A stretch of DNA of 64,000 bases from an uncultured Spartobacteria bacterium (lineage in GTDB: Bacteria; Verrucomicrobiota; Verrucomicrobiia; Chthoniobacterales; Chthoniobacteraceae). Every line of letters starts with the position of its first letter. Within the stretch, counting starts at the first letter, position 1. Positions 38,915 through 44,287 of this stretch are shown here, one piece after another. The DNA is taken from positions 3,680 to 67,679 of the forward strand of contig CAIRYQ010000023.1 in NCBI GenBank assembly GCA_903882875.1. Reading direction: 5' to 3'. The position numbers and the translations under genes were made by a program. Under the pieces are notes generated by a model. It made no database searches. It was not told the DNA's origin and saw nothing but the letters and a program-made list of their open reading frames with translations.

Positions 38915-39101
38915 GTTCCGGGCCTTTGGCCCGCGATGCACCGCGGTTTTCAAAGTGCATGACACGCTGCGGCAACGGCCAAGATCCAACGAACACACCC
39001 TCGCCGGGATTGCCCGTCGCACACTTCACCGCTATTCCCGACACCATGCGTGAGCGGGCGGGAGGAAAACGGATCGGAGCGCGCAACGCGGAGCACGGAT
39101 T

Positions 39102-39156
39102 GTGACTGGTGACTGGTGACTGGTGAATGGATGGGCGCTTCTAGTCACCAGTCACA
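39102..39156. repeat. Inverted heptamer arrays (GTGACTG x3.5 / CAGTCAC x2) forming a hairpin in the 5' leader of the 39197 gene
   Basis: gtgactggtgactggtgactggtga, then a 16-nt spacer, then agtcaccagtcaca. The arms are reverse complements over 13 nt. Confidence 0.8.
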
Positions 39157-39196
39157 GCCTCTTGCCCGCCGCACCTTTCCAATTTATCCACGCACC

Positions 39197-42100
39197 ATGC
39201 GCACGCCCCTCCTCTCCCTCGTCCTCGCACTCGCAGCGATTTTTTCCACGCACGCCGCCGAGCCCTTTGAGATAAAAGACGGCGACCGCGTCCTCTTCCT
39301 CGGGGACACGCTCCTCGAACGCGAGGGCACCTACGGCTACCTCGAGACCCGCATGGCCGAGCAGTTCCCCGACCGGAAGTTCACCGTGCGCAACCTCGCC
39401 TTCAGCGCCGACACGCCGCTCGGCTGGTCGCGCGCGTCGTTCGACCCCGCGGCGAAGGGCTTCGAGCGGCTGAAGGAGCAGCTCGCGCTCGTGCAGCCCA
39501 CGGTCGTCTTCCTCGGCTACGGCATGGCCGCGAGCCTGCAGGAAATGACCGACCGCTCGCAGGACTGGACGCTGAACCGCGACACCGCCCGCTACGGTGC
39601 CGAGCCGATGAGCGCCGGGCGGTTCAAACGCGAGCTTGCACAACTCATGGACGCAATCGTGGAGGGAAACCGGAAACCGGATACCGGATACCGGAAAGGG
39701 GAAGATGGCGACGCTGACGCGTCGAAGCAGAATCTATCCGGTATCCGGTATCCGGTATCCGGTTTCCGTTTCGTCCTGCTCTCGCCGATCCGGCACGAGG
39801 ACTTGCGCGCGACGCGCCCCGGCCTGCCCGACCCGACGGAGCACAACAAGCTGCTGGAGCAATACAGCAAGGCCATCGAGGAACTGGCGAAGGAGCGCGG
39901 GGCGCGGTTTGTCTCGCTGAACTTCCCGTTAATCTACCATCTCACACCCGAGCAAATCGCGACGAATATGGGAGGGCCGAATCCGATTCTCTTGACGGAC
40001 AACGGCATCCATCTCAACGAGGTGGGTTACGTCGGGATGCTGCGCCAAATGTGTGAGGCTCTCAGTTGGGGCAGCTACCTCGGGAAGGGAGTGGCGCTCG
40101 GTGAACCCATTTCCACACCGCCGGGACCCAAATTCACTCAGGAGGATATCGCGGCATCTTTGAAATGGCATGAGCGCAAGGAAGCCCTCCGCGCCGCCAT
40201 CATCCGCAAGAACGCGCTCTTCTTCCACCGCTGGCGGCCGGCGAATGAGACCTACCTCTTCGGCTTCCGCAAACGCGAGCAGGGGCAGAACGCCGTCGAG
40301 ATTCCGAAGTTCGACCCGCTCATCGAAGCCGCCGAGGCCGAGATCGAGAAGCTGAAGCACGCTCCCAAGGGGGCCAGCGTCATGCCCTCCGAAGACGGGG
40401 CCACGGCTGACATTCACGGCGGCGTGTCCCCCGAACTCCCTGCTGTGTCCGCCGAACACCGGTCGGTGTCTGGCGAACACCGATCGGTGTCTGACGAACA
40501 CCGGTCGGTGTCTGGCGAACACCGGTCGGTGTCTGACGAACACCGGTCGGTGTCTGGCGAACACCGGTCGGTGTCTGGCGAACACCGGTCGGTGTCTGAC
40601 GAACACCGGTCAGTGTCTGACGAACACCGGTCGGTGTTTGACGAACACCGGTCGGTGTTTGACGAACACCGGTCGGTGTTTGACGAACACACAGCCGCTT
40701 CCGCGCAGCAAAAGGCCGATTTTCAGCCACAAACGCCCGTTTTCACCTCCGCCGGCCAACTTTACGCAGCCAACGACACCCCGGCGATCGGGAACCAGCC
40801 CCCAGTCACCAGTCACCAGTCACCAGTCACATCCCCCGACCCCGCCCGCCAGACCCCCGCCGAGACGCCCGACCTTTCCAAGCTCCCCGCCTCGCCCTCC
40901 ACCCTCCCGCTCCCCACCTTCACCCTCGCCGACGGCCTCGAAATCTCCCTCTGGGCCGAAAACCCGCTCCTCGCCAAGCCGACCGAGATGAATTGGGACG
41001 CACAGGGCCGCCTGTGGGTGGCGAGCAGCGCACTGTATCCCATGATCGCCCCCGGCCAGGCGGCGGACGACAAAATCCTCATCCTCGAAGACCCCGGCCA
41101 CACGGGGAAGGGGACGAAGAGCACGGTCTTCGTGGACGGGCTGCTGCTGCCGACGGGGGTGGCACCGGTGCTCGTGGAAGACCGGAAAGCGGATACCGGA
41201 AACCGGAAAGGGGAAGATGGCGACGCTGACGCGTCTAAGCAGAATCTATCCGGTATCCGCTCTCCGGTATCCGGTATCGCCCGCTGGGCCTGCTACGTCG
41301 GCCAGTCCACCGAGCTGCTCTACTTCGAGGACACGCAAGGCACCGGCAAGGCGGACAAAAAGCGCATCGTCCTCAGCGGATTCGGCACCGAGGACACGCA
41401 CCACATCGTCCACACCCTGCGCTGGGGGCCGGATGGCCGGCTCTATTTTAACCAAAGCGTGTACATCCACACGCACATGGAGACGCCGTGGGGCGTCGTG
41501 CGGCTGAACAGCGGCGGCGTCTTCGCCTACGACCCGCGCACCGAGCGCGTGGAAGTCGTCACGAAGGGCCTCTGGAACACGTGGGGCCACGCATGGGACC
41601 AATGGGGCCAGAGCTTCCTCTCGGATGGCGCGGGCTTCAGCGGCATCTCGTGGGCATTCCCCGGAGCCGTCTTCAACCCGAGCGAAGGCAGCCGCCGGCA
41701 GATGCCCAGCATCAGCCCCGGCAGCTACCCGAAATTCGCCGGCCTCGAGCTCATCTACAGCCCGCACTTCCCCGCCGAGTGGCAGGGCACGGCGGTGACG
41801 TGCGACTTCCGCGCGCACAAAATCGTGCATTTCAAGATCAACGACCTCGGTTTGGAGCAGTCAGCAAAGAGCGGCTACGTCACCGATCAGCTCCCCGTGC
41901 TTGCGCAGACGAGCGACGCGACCTTCCGCCCGATTGACGTGAAGCTCGGCCCCGACGGCGCGATCTACATCGCCGACTGGAGCAACCCGATCATCAACCA
42001 CGGCGAAGTGGACTTCCGCGACCCGCGCCGCGACCACGAGCACGGCCGCATCTGGCGCCTGAGCATGAAGGGTGGAGCGGCGGTGAAGTGGGAGAGTCTG

Positions 42101-44182
42101 GTGGGGAAAAATAAGGAGGAGCTAATTTCAGCGCGCCGTTCAAAAAGCCAATGGGCACTGGAACAAGCGACTCACTTGCTAATCTACAGACCGCACACCG
42201 AAGCAGAACGCCAAGCCAGCCGCGACAGCTTGCTCGTCCAGATGCTTACCGACCCGGCGGCTCAATTTGAGGTTCCCGCATTACTCATCCTCAATACCAG
42301 GCCTCGCATCCGCATCGGAGCGATGCGAGCACTTGCGCGCTTACCAAAAATCGAAAGCGCCTCGCTCATCCTCGACGCCGCGATCAACGCGCCGAAGGAC
42401 GATCCGTTTTACGAGTTCGCCGCGTGGCTTTCCATCAATGACGTCGCGGAGGTCTGGACGGAGGCGGTGCTCGCCGGGAAATGGAAAATCGAGGGGCGCG
42501 AGAAGCAGTTGGAGTTTGCGCTCGATGCGCTGGATGCGGCCCGCTCCGGCCCCGTCATCGCCGCGCTGCTCAAGGAGCGGCCCATCACCCGCGACGGCGC
42601 GGGCCCGTGGATCGAGCTCATCGGCAAAGGCGGCGGCAAGGCCGAGCTGGAGCAGCTTTTCGAGCGTGTCGCGAAGGGCGACTTCGAGCCGCCCGCATTC
42701 GTCCGCGCGATCAACGCGCTCGCCGACGCCGCCCGCCTCCGCAACCTCCGCCCCGAGGGCAACCTTGCATCCATCAGAATGTGCCTCGTCGATCCTCATG
42801 CGGAGATCGCTTCCGCCGCCGCGCGCCTTGCGGGCCAGTGGCATCTTTCCGAAGTCGTGCCGTATATCGTCAATCTCGCACAGCATCCGGATGAGGGACC
42901 GCGCGCCGCCGCAATCGAGGGATTGCGCAACGTCGGCGGTGCCAAGGCCGTTGACGGGCTGCTATCCCTGACGCGCTCGAGAAGACCGGAGGTTCGGCCC
43001 GCCGCCCTCGCCGCGCTCGCGCAGCTCAAGCCCGCCGCCGCCATTTCCGAAATCCCGACCGTGCTCGGCGCAATCCAGTCCGAGCCCGAGCTGCTCGCCA
43101 CATGGCGCGGCATTTTCCAATCGAAGGAAGCCGCCGACACGCTGGCGAAGAACTTTCCGGCGGACCTCCCGAAGCCCGTCATCACCGCCGCGCTGCACGC
43201 CGCGCGCGAGCTTGGCCGCAAGGGCGAACGTCTCGTCGCGAAACTCGCGCCGCTCGCCGGCGAGAGCCTCGCGAATTTCGTCCCCGCCGATTTCGCCGAC
43301 CTCGCCGCCCGCGCGAAAAAGGACGGCGACCCCGTGGCCGGCGAAGCCCTGTATCGCCGCATGGCCAGCGCCTGCACGACCTGCCACGCCATTGGCGGAG
43401 CCGGCGGCAAGCTCGGCCCCGACCTCACGAGCATCGGCGCGAGCGCACCGGCGGACTACATCATCGAGAGCGTGCTGAACCCCGCCGCGAAAGTGAAGGA
43501 AGGCTACCATGCGTTTTCCTTCGCGATGAAGGACGGCACCGAGGCCATCGGCATCCCGACGCGCGAGACGCCGCAGGAGCAGTTCATCCGCACGATCGCC
43601 GGCGAGCAGGGACTGCCGAAGGCGAACATCGTTTCCAAAAAAATCGCCGAGGGCGGCGCAAGCCTGATGCCCGCCGGCCTCACCGCCGCATGGAGCGACC
43701 GCGAGCGGCTGAACCTCTACGCATTCCTCATGGAGCTGGGCCGCCCCGGCCCCTTCGACGCGAGCAAGAACAACGTGGCGCGCGTGTGGCAGCTCACCGA
43801 CTCCGGCAAAGTGGACGGCGCTCTGAAAGTCGAAGCCGCAGCGTCCACGCCGTCCATCCCGTCCACCTACGCCTACACCCTCGTGGACGGTCGCCTCACC
43901 AAGGACCTCCTCACCGAGAAGCTCGCCATCCTCCAGCCGAAGAACACCGCCGTGCATCTCACCGCGCGCTTCCAAGCCGCGAGCGCCGGCAAGGCCAAGC
44001 TCAACCTCACCGGCATCCGCAAAGCCTGGCTCGACGGCCAGCCCCTCGCCATCGCCAGCGAGCCGAGCCCGAGCGTCGAACTGACCGCAGGCGCGCACAC
44101 TTTCACCGTCGAAGTGGACGCCAAGTCCCCGCCCGAAGTCCTGCGCCTCGAATCGCCCGCGGCGAATTTCCTCGGGGACTGA
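39197..44182 (+). CDS. Giant secreted multidomain protein: SGNH/GDSL-like hydrolase + PVC-type membrane-bound-dehydrogenase beta-propeller + HEAT repeats + CxxCH cytochrome c domain
   Basis: The ATG at 39197 gives signal peptide MRTPLLSLVLALAAIFSTHA. SGNH block DGDRVLFLGDTLLERE. FTLADGLEISLWAENPLLAKPTEMNWDAQGRLWVA matches the Pirellula/Verrucomicrobium dehydrogenase N-domain type. HEAT-like repeats (VRPAALAALAQL). Heme motif CTTCHAIGGAGGKLGPDL. Contains three repeat families, listed separately. Confidence 0.85.
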   Translation: MRTPLLSLVLALAAIFSTHAAEPFEIKDGDRVLFLGDTLLEREGTYGYLETRMAEQFPDRKFTVRNLAFSADTPLGWSRASFDPAAKGFERLKEQLALVQPTVVFLGYGMAASLQEMTDRSQDWTLNRDTARYGAEPMSAGRFKRELAQLMDAIVEGNRKPDTGYRKGEDGDADASKQNLSGIRYPVSGFRFVLLSPIRHEDLRATRPGLPDPTEHNKLLEQYSKAIEELAKERGARFVSLNFPLIYHLTPEQIATNMGGPNPILLTDNGIHLNEVGYVGMLRQMCEALSWGSYLGKGVALGEPISTPPGPKFTQEDIAASLKWHERKEALRAAIIRKNALFFHRWRPANETYLFGFRKREQGQNAVEIPKFDPLIEAAEAEIEKLKHAPKGASVMPSEDGATADIHGGVSPELPAVSAEHRSVSGEHRSVSDEHRSVSGEHRSVSDEHRSVSGEHRSVSGEHRSVSDEHRSVSDEHRSVFDEHRSVFDEHRSVFDEHTAASAQQKADFQPQTPVFTSAGQLYAANDTPAIGNQPPVTSHQSPVTSPDPARQTPAETPDLSKLPASPSTLPLPTFTLADGLEISLWAENPLLAKPTEMNWDAQGRLWVASSALYPMIAPGQAADDKILILEDPGHTGKGTKSTVFVDGLLLPTGVAPVLVEDRKADTGNRKGEDGDADASKQNLSGIRSPVSGIARWACYVGQSTELLYFEDTQGTGKADKKRIVLSGFGTEDTHHIVHTLRWGPDGRLYFNQSVYIHTHMETPWGVVRLNSGGVFAYDPRTERVEVVTKGLWNTWGHAWDQWGQSFLSDGAGFSGISWAFPGAVFNPSEGSRRQMPSISPGSYPKFAGLELIYSPHFPAEWQGTAVTCDFRAHKIVHFKINDLGLEQSAKSGYVTDQLPVLAQTSDATFRPIDVKLGPDGAIYIADWSNPIINHGEVDFRDPRRDHEHGRIWRLSMKGGAAVKWESLVGKNKEELISARRSKSQWALEQATHLLIYRPHTEAERQASRDSLLVQMLTDPAAQFEVPALLILNTRPRIRIGAMRALARLPKIESASLILDAAINAPKDDPFYEFAAWLSINDVAEVWTEAVLAGKWKIEGREKQLEFALDALDAARSGPVIAALLKERPITRDGAGPWIELIGKGGGKAELEQLFERVAKGDFEPPAFVRAINALADAARLRNLRPEGNLASIRMCLVDPHAEIASAAARLAGQWHLSEVVPYIVNLAQHPDEGPRAAAIEGLRNVGGAKAVDGLLSLTRSRRPEVRPAALAALAQLKPAAAISEIPTVLGAIQSEPELLATWRGIFQSKEAADTLAKNFPADLPKPVITAALHAARELGRKGERLVAKLAPLAGESLANFVPADFADLAARAKKDGDPVAGEALYRRMASACTTCHAIGGAGGKLGPDLTSIGASAPADYIIESVLNPAAKVKEGYHAFSFAMKDGTEAIGIPTRETPQEQFIRTIAGEQGLPKANIVSKKIAEGGASLMPAGLTAAWSDRERLNLYAFLMELGRPGPFDASKNNVARVWQLTDSGKVDGALKVEAAASTPSIPSTYAYTLVDGRLTKDLLTEKLAILQPKNTAVHLTARFQAASAGKAKLNLTGIRKAWLDGQPLAIASEPSPSVELTAGAHTFTVEVDAKSPPEVLRLESPAANFLGD
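39665..39771. repeat. Intragenic palindromic element, copy 1 (inverted heptamer-array arms + 43-nt core), in frame
   Basis: Left arm ggaaaccggaaaccggataccggataccgg. Right arm ccggtatccggtatccggtatccggtttccg (reverse complement). The 58-nt core 39690-39747 is 57/58 identical to 41202-41259. Confidence 0.85.
40445..40690 (+). repeat. 21-nt tandem repeat, ~11.7 copies, in frame (VS[G/D/A]EHRS)n
   Basis: The unit gaacaccggtcggtgtctg[g/a]c is repeated head to tail. Each unit contains the palindrome acaccg-gt-cggtgt. The last three units share a variant (ttt, giving VFDEHRS). Confidence 0.9.
40803..40830 (+). repeat. Heptamer array CAGTCAC x4 inside the CDS
   Basis: Exactly four tandem copies. 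It is the same heptamer family as the leader hairpin at 39102-39156. Confidence 0.9.
41181..41280. repeat. Intragenic palindromic element, copy 2, in frame
   Basis: accggaaagcggataccggaaaccgg, then the core, then ccggtatccgctctccggtatccggtatcg. It has the same codon phase as copy 1 and encodes the near-identical peptide RKGEDGDADASKQNLSGIR. Confidence 0.85.
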
Positions 44183-44186
44183 TCCC

Positions 44187-44287
44187 CGTAGCCGCCGGCG
44201 GAAGGAGGCGGGCTGATCTTTCTTTCCGCGTTCCGAGATCCGAACTCCGCACTTCAAGGCACCCGCCTCCTTCCGTCGGCGGCTACG
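44187..44287. repeat. REP-like inverted repeat (27-nt arms, 47-nt spacer) just after the stop of the giant gene
   Basis: cgtagccgccggcggaaggaggcgggc (44187-44213) versus acccgcctccttccgtcggcggctacg (44261-44287), 25/27 complementary. A solo arm copy gccgacggaaggaggcgggc lies at 51794-51813. Confidence 0.8.

What the first reader, a model, noticed from the sequence alone, without database searches (positions are those of the whole stretch)
41181..41280. Second in-frame copy of the palindromic element, placed inside the beta-propeller dehydrogenase domain
Copy 2 interrupts the otherwise family-typical segment ...LLLPTGVAPVLVE / ACYVGQSTELLYFEDTQGTGKADK with DRKADTGNRKGEDGDADASKQNLSGIRSPVSGIAR. 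Its arms are more degenerate than in copy 1 (cggaaagcggatacc... / ...tccgctctccgg), which suggests it is older or decaying. The core is nearly identical. Two independent insertions in one gene, both in phase 1, argues either for selection on frame compatibility or for a phase-specific insertion mechanism.
Basis: partly seen in the sequence, partly recalled or inferred. Interest (0 to 1): 0.6.

Follow-up and report, generated by a model that had tools for sequence, protein, structure and literature searches.

The report
In-frame heptamer-armed palindrome in propeller loop
A roughly 100-base hairpin-forming DNA repeat sits in frame in a surface loop of a bacterial beta-propeller protein, and related species carry quite different hairpin repeats at exactly the same spot, so this loop is a long-lived landing site for selfish-looking palindromes.

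Summary
Window 41176-41278 is a second copy of the palindrome at 39664-39766. The copies are 92% identical and 1512 nt (504 codons) apart, both in frame in a 1688-aa PVC-type heme-binding protein.

Copy 2 adds 35 residues (689-723). An AlphaFold2 model shows them as a disordered loop (pLDDT about 30) between two confident strands of a PQQ-sugar-dehydrogenase-like propeller. Of 80 orthologs, 72 have only 9-33 nt at this position.

The element belongs to a dispersed family of about 19 loci (29 arm matches) that is almost private to this Chthoniobacteraceae genome. Its arms are tandem CCGGAWA heptamers, which contain no stop in any of the six frames. Eight copies lie deep inside unrelated genes and all keep the frame.

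- **Phase:** the loop-side end of the left arm falls in phases 2/2/4, so a phase-specific insertion mechanism is not supported. The right arm is read in one phase in 7 of 8 copies, which is unexplained.
- **Age:** copy 2 is not decaying. Its "degenerate" bases are the family-typical GCGG/CCGC unit and pair with each other.
- **New here:** at both sites of this gene, and at a third host gene, close relatives (78-86% identical at fourfold sites) carry unrelated palindromes or none. These are recurrent hot spots with rapid turnover.

The scan already reported copy 1 of this family.

The parts
39197..44182 (+). Host gene. The stop-to-stop ORF starts at 39116; the likely start is the ATG at 39197, before a signal-peptide-like MRTPLLSLVLALAAIF. 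Domain order: GDSL/SGNH lipase-like N-terminus, repeat linker, DUF7133/TIGR02604 propeller, HEAT repeats, CxxCH cytochrome c domain.
   Evidence: PF23500 DUF7133 2.4e-60, TIGR02604 8.5e-59, TIGR02603 1.9e-24.
41180..41210 (+). Copy 2, left arm: four heptamer units (GACCGGA AAGCGGA TACCGGA AACCGGA) ending in AAG.
41211..41245 (+). Copy 2, loop. It is nearly identical to the loop of copy 1 (one mismatch in the 44-nt core) and contains a small internal hairpin GACGC-TGAC-GCGTC.
41246..41278 (+). Copy 2, right arm: CTATCCG GTATCCG CTCTCCG GTATCCG GTATC, complementary to the left arm with one unit out of register.
   Evidence: (I13, I20, I21).
41180..41284 (+). The 35 extra codons (residues 689-723, DRKADTG...SGIAR) relative to empty-site orthologs, which read LTPEG[HR]W here.
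   Evidence: The AF2 low-confidence coil spans 689-721.
39664..39771 (+). Copy 1 of the same element, in frame in the GDSL-like domain (residues 184-218), with near-perfect arms.
   Evidence: This site is also a hot spot in orthologs.

Best explanation
Copy 2 is a member of a dispersed, hairpin-forming repeat family. The arms are tandem CCGGAWA heptamers ending in CCGGAAAG / CTTTCCGG, and the loops fall into diverged subfamilies. The family has expanded in this one Chthoniobacteraceae genome. It behaves like a small non-autonomous selfish element, similar in behaviour to the Rickettsia palindromic elements.

Copy 2 landed in, or was copied into, the turn between the second and third strands of a propeller blade. 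There it is translated as a 35-residue hydrophilic, disordered surface loop.

Three things allow it to survive inside a gene:
- Three heptamers make 21 nt, and this heptamer has no stop in any of the six frames.
- The net insert is a multiple of three.
- The site is a permissive turn.

Copies that broke a frame or a fold were removed by selection, so no phase-specific insertion mechanism is needed. Copy 1 and copy 2 come from one recent copying event within the gene. The same loop is used again and again in related species by other palindrome families, so the elements turn over far faster than point mutation.

Shown: the anatomy, family membership, loop location, frame preservation, phase spread and site recurrence. 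Inferred: mobility as the cause of dispersal, selection as the filter, and the direction and mechanism of copying.
For: **Family.** There are about 19 loci with the same arms. Arm pattern matches: 29 in this genome, 0-4 in each of 29 other genomes of the genus, 0 for the reversed control. Loops are related across loci, for example the C26 copy encodes DHPDADGASEQNLSGI against GEDGDADASKQNLSGI here.

**Insertion.** 72 of 80 orthologs have 9-33 nt at the site, mostly a GDGG turn. The closest relatives L014 and L015 have 15 nt.

**Loop.** The AF2 model has mean pLDDT 82.7 and pTM 0.85. The insert has pLDDT 29-33 and is coil between two strands. The fold matches PQQ sugar dehydrogenases (3a9g, E 4e-11).

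**Frame tolerance.** Eight copies lie deep inside long ORFs with normal codon-position GC. The hosts are this protein (twice), two DUF1553 paralogs, an ABC exporter, a Ser/Thr kinase and a B12/radical-SAM protein (twice). All keep the frame. Most copies have 0-1 stops over all six frames. Left-arm phases are 2/2/4. No split gene was seen at the non-intragenic copies.

**Turnover.** At site 2 the relatives carry GTGCTCA, CCAGCAA, AAGTCGG, GAACATC or GATGAAG palindromes, 8- or 9-mer palindromes, or nothing. The same holds at site 1 and in the ABC exporter, although fourfold-site identity to the closest relatives is 78-86%. In 15 orthologs, palindromes cluster at residues ~200, ~701-715 and ~915.

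**Local copying recurs.** In G010 the same gene carries two copies of a GAACGTC palindrome, at site 1 and at ~915.
Against: - No transposase is linked to the family. The genome has three IS200/IS605-type Y1 transposase genes, but none is flanked by CCGGAWA arms.
- No target-site duplication is visible at the ends.
- All filled site-2 alleles share L-V at the left junction and all empty ones share L-T-P-E-G, while filled and empty alleles are intermixed on the flank tree. This fits neither simple independent insertion nor simple loss.
- The AAGTCGG heptamer of G011 exists only at this locus, which points to change in place and not to insertion of a dispersed element.
- The right arm is read in one phase in 7 of 8 copies, which a pure tolerance filter does not predict.
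- Intragenic copies are 8 of about 19. That is fewer than random insertion into a gene-dense genome would give, but no broken genes were found to show the losers of the filter.
Confidence: 0.6

Rival explanations
1. The palindromes grow and are replaced in place. The loop codons form a mini-hairpin. Replication slippage amplifies a 7-nt unit, and fold-back or template switching copies it to the other arm. Ectopic gene conversion between hairpins then makes loci in one genome look like a 'family'. On this reading the palindromes are a mutational by-product of hairpin-prone sites and not insertions of a mobile element.
For: - The same three or four sites are occupied in many species by unrelated units.
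- The AAGTCGG unit of G011 occurs only at this site, on both arms. It differs from CGGAAAC by a paired two-base change, and its loop may be related to the loop here.
- The empty alleles are themselves small quasi-palindromes: CGCCC-GAG-GGACG and GCC-CGAA-GGC (read).
- There is no target-site duplication and no linked transposase.
- Period-7 arrays are strongly over-represented: 62 arrays at lag 7 against 4-9 at lags 6, 8, 9, 10 and 12. Mrazek-type heptamer slippage is described in the literature (quoted in PMC4679880).
Against: - About 19 loci in unrelated genes and spacers share arms and partly share loops. That requires copying between loci, whatever it is called.
- The family is nearly private to one genome, which looks like a burst.
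- Copies 1 and 2 are 92% identical over loop and arms, 1.5 kb apart.
Confidence: 0.2
2. The hairpin is functional. Possible roles are a strong mRNA stem-loop placed between folding units to pause ribosomes or stabilise the message, a contingency switch (loss or gain of one heptamer, or inversion between the arms, would shift or recode the frame), or a selected flexible surface loop.
For: - The stem is very stable (-52 to -76 kcal/mol) and complementarity is kept in every species despite complete sequence turnover.
- Sites are conserved for long times.
- The right arm has a fixed reading phase in 7 of 8 copies.
- Five of eight copies stay open if inverted in place.
- Intragenic invertons are a described phenomenon (bioRxiv 10.1101/2023.03.11.532203, abstract as listed).
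Against: - The closest relatives (L014, L015, L016) lack the element at site 2 and keep an intact gene, so it is dispensable.
- The family also lies in spacers and leaders.
- The arrays are short (3-4 units) and interrupted, so they are poor slippage substrates.
- Copy 2 acquires a stop if inverted.
- No inverted or unit-number variant appears in the contigs laid, although contigs hide minor variants.
Confidence: 0.12
3. Assembly artefact: a fold-back chimera or a repeat-induced misjoin in a metagenome-assembled genome.
For: The genome is a 129-contig MAG. Logan unitigs break inside the loops of both copies.
Against: - The insert is in frame, a multiple of three, and flanked by perfectly conserved coding sequence.
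- Analogous in-frame palindromes sit at the same site in independently assembled MAGs from other studies.
- Unitigs from both sides overlap across the loop with no differences.
Confidence: 0.02

Closest known systems
Rickettsia palindromic elements (RPE; Ogata et al. 2000, as summarised in PMC10969869)
   Same: A dispersed palindromic repeat of about 100-150 bp that is found in frame inside unrelated protein-coding genes. It is translated as an extra peptide at positions compatible with the fold. A large share of copies are intragenic.
   Different: There is no sequence relation and the phylum is different (Verrucomicrobiota). The arms here are built of tandem 7-nt units. The loops are not conserved across the family. 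The same host sites are re-used by different families in sister species, which is not reported in the RPE passage read.
Convergent pairs of heptameric simple repeats, (GGGAATC)n in Xanthomonas (PMC4692102)
   Same: Tandem heptamer arrays, typically about four units, that often occur as two arrays in inverted orientation close together and can form stem-loops. They are dispersed over the genome.
   Different: [quoted passage not shown] The units here have no G-tracts, and 8 of about 19 copies are in frame inside genes.
REP/BIME elements and REPINs with RAYT transposases
   Same: Short, species-specific palindromes in many copies with hairpin potential. Y1 (IS200-like) transposase genes are present in the genome.
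   Different: REPs are extragenic, 20-40 bp, and typically carry GTAG/CGTC heads. Here no Y1 gene is flanked by the CCGGAWA arms, and the three Y1 proteins score as IS200/IS605 and stay below the RAYT cut-off.
Heptamer direct repeats: cyanobacterial STRR and TAACTGA repeats of Beggiatoaceae (PMC4679880)
   Same: Over-representation of period-7 tandem repeats, family-specific units, and patchy distribution among genomes.
   Different: Those are direct arrays, mostly intergenic and just upstream of start codons, with only one indirect repeat among 170 sets. Here the defining feature is the inverted pair and in-frame residence.

Membership tests
Rickettsia palindromic elements (RPE) | Palindromic repeat of about 100-150 bp present in many dispersed copies | tested here: met
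   About 19 loci and 29 arm matches. Hairpin z-scores are -4.8 and -10.6.
Rickettsia palindromic elements (RPE) | Frequent in-frame residence inside unrelated protein-coding genes | tested here: met
   Eight copies lie deep in long ORFs of six proteins from five families, and all preserve the frame.
Rickettsia palindromic elements (RPE) | Insert lies at a position compatible with the protein fold (surface loop) | tested here: met
   In the AF2 model the insert is coil with pLDDT about 30 between two confident strands. Orthologs have a 3-6 residue turn at this position.
Rickettsia palindromic elements (RPE) | Sequence homology to RPE-1 to RPE-10, in Rickettsia | not tested
   No RPE sequence was compared. 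The host is a Chthoniobacteraceae MAG and the arms are heptamer arrays, which are not mentioned in the RPE passage read. I file it as working like an RPE, not as a member.
Convergent heptameric SSR pairs (Xanthomonas GGGAATC type) | Arms are tandem 7-nt units in inverted orientation | tested here: met
Convergent heptameric SSR pairs (Xanthomonas GGGAATC type) | G-tract units able to form G-quadruplexes | tested here: not met
   The unit CCGGAWA has no run of three G.
REP/REPIN with RAYT | A cognate Y1 (RAYT) transposase gene flanked by the repeat | tested here: not met
   Three PF01797 genes were found. Their flanks hold other palindromes but no CCGGAWA arms. NCBIfam assigns them to IS200/IS605, and the RAYT model scores below its cut-off.
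REP/REPIN with RAYT | Extragenic location | tested here: not met
   8 of about 19 copies are intragenic.
MITE | Terminal inverted repeats plus a target-site duplication, and a parent IS with the same ends | tested here: inconclusive
   The whole element is an inverted repeat. No direct duplication is visible at the ends of 19 copies. A parent IS was not searched for systematically.
Intragenic inverton | Both orientations of the segment between the inverted repeats present in one population | not testable with these tools
   Only assembled contigs were available for the holding runs and no inverted form appears among them. Copy 2 would gain a stop if inverted.

The most novel reading that the evidence does not exclude
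Particular protein loops in Chthoniobacteraceae act as persistent landing pads where hairpin elements replace one another. That is, a structure-guided (hairpin-to-hairpin) copying or conversion process moves heptamer-armed palindromes between pre-existing hairpin sites, including sites within the same gene. It keeps arms complementary while the unit sequence changes completely between sister species. This would be a mode of repeat mobility and in-frame protein-loop renewal not described for REP, MITE or RPE elements.
Probability: 0.2. Interest if true: 0.75.

Novelty: new variant of a known kind. Interest (0 to 1): 0.55.

Why it matters
In-frame selfish palindromes are textbook-known almost only from Rickettsia. 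Here the same behaviour appears in free-living freshwater/soil Verrucomicrobiota, with a different architecture (tandem heptamer arms that are open in all six frames).

The comparative data add something testable: the same loops of the same proteins are occupied in sister species by unrelated palindromes or by none, at only about 15-20% neutral divergence. That makes it possible to ask how such elements choose or keep their sites, how fast they turn over, and whether they renew surface loops of secreted proteins.

For annotation, the result warns that low-complexity inserts in PVC proteins are DNA-level repeats and not protein-level features.

Tried and rejected
- **Phase-specific insertion.** Rejected on the left-arm phase census, 2/2/4.
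- **Copy 2 as a decaying copy.** Rejected after comparing all family arms.
- **Vertical neutral drift as the cause of different units at one site.** Rejected because fourfold-site identity to those relatives is 78-86%, while the elements share no similarity.
- **RAYT/IS200 linkage.** Three Y1 genes were found, but none is flanked by the arms.
- **Apparent frameshift in L017/G004.** Checked as a possible heptamer slippage. It is a 140-nt tandem duplication upstream of the domain and unrelated to the arrays.
- **Inverton reading.** In-place inversion leaves 5 of 8 copies open but puts a stop in copy 2. No inverted contig was seen.
- **Read-level polymorphism.** It could not be assessed, because the holding runs are kept only as contigs.
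- **Literature.** Three searches found heptamer repeats and RPEs but no description of heptamer-armed in-frame palindromes in Verrucomicrobia.
- **Technical failure.** A first alignment failed because one locus (L017) contained stops, and it was redone without that locus.
Full report
**1. What is there**

The window lies in a 5.78-Mb, 62.5% GC, 129-contig genome. By the record titles of the closest loci, the organism is a Chthoniobacteraceae/Chthoniobacterales bacterium of the Verrucomicrobiota.

The finding sits in a 1688-codon ORF, 39116-44182, with a likely start at 39197. Pfam and NCBIfam describe it as a GDSL-lipase-like N-terminus, a DUF7133/TIGR02604 'PVC-type heme-binding CxxCH protein' domain, HEAT repeats and a cytochrome c domain.

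Repeat finding gives two copies of a ~103-nt element, 39664-39766 and 41176-41278. They are 92% identical and 1512 nt apart, so they share a codon phase. The 44-nt core occurs only at these two places, with 0 matches in 100 shuffles.

Copy 2 consists of:
- a left arm, 41180-41210, of four heptamer units;
- a 35-nt loop, 41211-41245;
- a right arm, 41246-41278.

It adds residues 689-723 (DRKADTG...SGIAR). As RNA it folds to -52.2 kcal/mol (z -4.8); copy 1 folds to -75.7 (z -10.6). The DNA folds give the same structures.

**2. It is an insertion in a surface turn of the propeller**

I fetched 80 orthologous loci. Of these, 72 have only 9-33 nt between the two conserved flanks, mostly encoding a GDGG turn. 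Eight have 66 nt or more. The closest relatives, L014 and L015, have 15 nt (LTPEG[RH]W).

An AlphaFold2 model of residues 600-1000, built on a 79-sequence alignment, has mean pLDDT 82.7 and pTM 0.85. Residues 90-122 of the fragment (689-721 of the protein) are the only long low-confidence stretch. They have pLDDT 29-33 and no secondary structure, and lie between strands 80-85 and 126-131. By strand order these are the second and third strands of the second four-stranded blade. That assignment is my inference from the strand list.

The model's best structural matches are PQQ-dependent sugar dehydrogenases (3a9g, 2ism; E about 1e-10, TM 0.6-0.7).

**3. The element belongs to a dispersed family with heptamer arms**

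BLAST of the two copies against the genome, plus a unit regex, find about 19 loci with arms made of CCGGAWA units. The arms end in CCGGAAAG on the left of the loop and CTTTCCGG on the right.

A 21-nt arm pattern with one mismatch allowed matches 29 times in this genome. It matches 0-4 times in each of 29 other genomes of the genus, and the reversed control matches 0 times. The family has therefore expanded here.

The loops are not uniform but fall into related groups. The copy in a kinase gene, for example, encodes DHPDADGASEQNLSGI, against GEDGDADASKQNLSGI here.

Most copies carry an AGCGGAW unit on the left and its partner WTCCGCT on the right. Those are exactly the bases that make copy 2 look 'degenerate', and they pair with each other in its fold. 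So copy 2 is close to the family consensus and copy 1 is the homogenised one. 'Older or decaying' is not supported.

More generally, period-7 arrays are strongly over-represented in this genome:
- 62 arrays at lag 7, against 4-9 at lags 6, 8, 9, 10 and 12;
- several families are present: TGCGGAT, GTGACTG, GTGCGGA and CCGGAWA;
- about a third of the arrays have an inverted partner within 200 nt.

**4. Frame census**

Eight copies lie deep inside long ORFs with the normal codon-position GC signature. The hosts are:
- this protein (two copies);
- two DUF1553 paralogs, at the same TYRQ(S)S site;
- an ABC exporter, in the linker between the membrane and ATPase domains;
- a Ser/Thr kinase domain;
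- a B12-binding/radical-SAM protein (two copies).

All keep the frame. The other copies lie in spacers, leaders or downstream regions, and a codon-usage profile shows no gene split by them.

Three heptamers make seven codons, and CCGGAWA and its complement contain no stop. The arms are therefore open in all six frames, and most whole copies have 0-1 stops over the six frames.

The loop-side end of the left arm lies in phases 0,0,1,2,1,2,2,2. The only two phase-0 copies are the two in this gene, which share a loop that is open in two of three forward frames. There is therefore no sign of a phase-specific insertion mechanism, and the tolerance-plus-selection reading is favoured.

One thing remains odd. 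The loop-side end of the right arm is in a single phase in 7 of 8 copies (6 of 7 if the twin copies count once). By my own binomial estimate, treating copies as independent, that has a chance probability of roughly 0.02. All three phases give the same cyclic peptide, so I have no explanation for the bias.

**5. The same loops are hot spots with rapid turnover**

This is the main new result.

*Site 2.* Same-genus relatives carry palindromes made of quite different units:
- GTGCTCA (G015);
- CCAGCAA (G004, G014);
- AAGTCGG (G011);
- GAACATC, GATGAAG, and 8- and 9-mer units in further relatives;
- a 228-nt GC-rich palindrome and a 357-nt insert in two others;
- only 15-18 nt in L006/L016, L014 and L015.

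In the G015 copy an extra base in the right arm resets the register so that the TGA of the unit never falls in frame (read). This is a direct trace of selection for an open frame.

*Site 1.* The same picture holds: the base state is 21-30 nt, and close relatives carry 78-204 nt palindromes of other kinds.

*ABC exporter site.* The same holds again. There the G015 ortholog carries, in frame, a relative of the REP-like element that follows the stop codon of the giant gene in this window at 44187-44287.

Across 15 full-length orthologs, palindromes cluster at residues ~200 (5 genomes), ~701-715 (6), ~915 (3) and in the linker.

Fourfold-degenerate sites are 78-86% identical between this genome and the closest relatives. 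The complete dissimilarity of the elements therefore cannot be ordinary drift. They are gained, lost or replaced much faster.

On a tree of the flanking protein sequence, filled and empty alleles are intermixed. Yet all four filled alleles share L-V at the left junction and all three empty ones share L-T-P-E-G. This argues against both a simple 'independent insertions' story and a simple 'one gain, several losses' story.

The unit families differ in range:
- GTGCTCA is abundant in four relatives (37-174 matches) and rare here (6).
- CCAGCAA is confined to G004 and G014.
- AAGTCGG exists only at this very locus in G011. It differs from CGGAAAC by a two-base change mirrored on both arms, next to a loop that may be related to the one here. 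That suggests concerted, compensatory change in place.

'Two copies of one palindrome in one gene' also recurs. In G010 the homologous gene carries a GAACGTC palindrome both at site 1 and at ~915, with shared flank and loop starts. Local copying between hot spots is thus a repeated event. Copies 1 and 2 here are best read as one such event and not as two independent insertions.

**6. Mechanism**

*Best-supported reading (0.6).* A selfish, hairpin-forming repeat is dispersed by an unknown copying process. It is tolerated in frame because of its stop-free arms, its length in multiples of three, and its residence in permissive turns. Selection removes the rest.

*In-place growth and replacement (0.2).* Slippage and template switching, with ectopic conversion, would create and replace the palindromes at hairpin-prone sites. 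This fits the site persistence, the locus-private unit, the quasi-palindromic empty sites and the lack of target duplications. It does not by itself explain a 19-locus family private to one genome.

*A functional hairpin or switch (0.12).* This is weakened by the intact empty alleles in the nearest relatives.

*Assembly artefact (0.02).* This is excluded for practical purposes by the in-frame structure and by the analogous inserts in independent MAGs.

Three IS200/IS605-type Y1 transposase genes exist in the genome, but none is flanked by the arms. No mobilising enzyme can be named.

**7. Comparison with what is known**

In behaviour the closest system is the Rickettsia palindromic element: a dispersed palindrome, frequently in frame in unrelated genes, at fold-compatible positions (PMC10969869).

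In architecture the closest are the convergent pairs of heptameric repeats of Xanthomonas. [quoted passage not shown]

Heptamer direct repeats of cyanobacteria and Beggiatoaceae share only the period (PMC4679880).

The element fails the defining features of REP/RAYT tested here: it is not extragenic and no Y1 gene is flanked by it. It cannot be called a MITE, since no target duplication was seen and no parent IS is known.

I found no paper describing heptamer-armed palindromes in frame in Verrucomicrobial genes.

An earlier follow-up in this scan, on copy 1 of the same window, reached the same identification of the family.

**8. Verdict**

The feature is real. It is a new variant of a known kind. 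The single copy is of moderate interest. The site-persistence and turnover pattern, and the unexplained right-arm phase bias, are the parts worth following.

Noticed in passing
window 44187-44287; L119 (G015:C24), site: The REP-like inverted repeat just after the stop of the giant gene (arms CGTAGCCGCCGGCGGAAGGAGGCGGG and its complement) has a close relative that sits in frame in the TMD-NBD linker of an ABC exporter in genome G015. In this genome the same linker site holds a CCGGAWA palindrome.
   Followed up: partly
window 39101-39130 and 40802-40831: GTGACTG heptamer arrays. One lies in the 5' leader, where that strand carries TGA in every frame. The inverse orientation lies in frame in the linker and encodes SHQSPVT repeats. 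The family has 11 arrays genome-wide, mostly without a partner arm.
   Followed up: partly
window 40348-40725: A 21-nt tandem array of about 12 units encodes (EHRSVSG/D)n in the linker between the lipase-like domain and the propeller. Orthologs have other repeat peptides in the same linker.
   Followed up: no
G000:C115:77583-77673 and G000:C15:7597-7665 (L111, L113): Two DUF1553 (PSD1) paralogs each carry a CCGGAWA palindrome at the same position, directly after the conserved TYRQ(S)S motif. This is another case of site recurrence, here between paralogs.
   Followed up: partly
L098 (G010:C137), codons ~240-290 and ~945-990 of the homologous gene: Two in-frame copies of a (GAACGTC)n ... (GACGTTC)n palindrome lie in one gene, at site 1 and at a third hot spot (~residue 915 in this genome's numbering). 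They share flank and loop starts.
   Followed up: yes
G000:C15:183887-183928 and 184308-184349: A left arm and a right arm of the CCGGAWA family lie about 380 nt apart and flank a stretch with weak coding signal, between two minus-strand genes in the same frame. This may be a composite or interrupted element.
   Followed up: no
the eight deep intragenic CCGGAWA copies of G000: The loop-side end of the right arm (CTTTCCG) is in codon phase 0 in 7 of 8 copies, giving ...LSGIRYPVSG, although all three phases are open and give the same cyclic peptide. The left-arm phases are spread.
   Followed up: partly
L017 / L095 (G004:C170), about 3955-4242 of L017: A 140-nt tandem duplication (98.6% identical) just upstream of the propeller domain shifts the frame of the homologous gene in G004. 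It may be a real disruption or an assembly error.
   Followed up: partly
L108 118-187 and 1185-1405; L109 407-579: The flanks of two IS200/IS605-type transposase genes hold other palindromes: a GATGAAG-type heptamer palindrome, nested long GC-rich palindromes, and an array of ~21-nt palindromic units.
   Followed up: no
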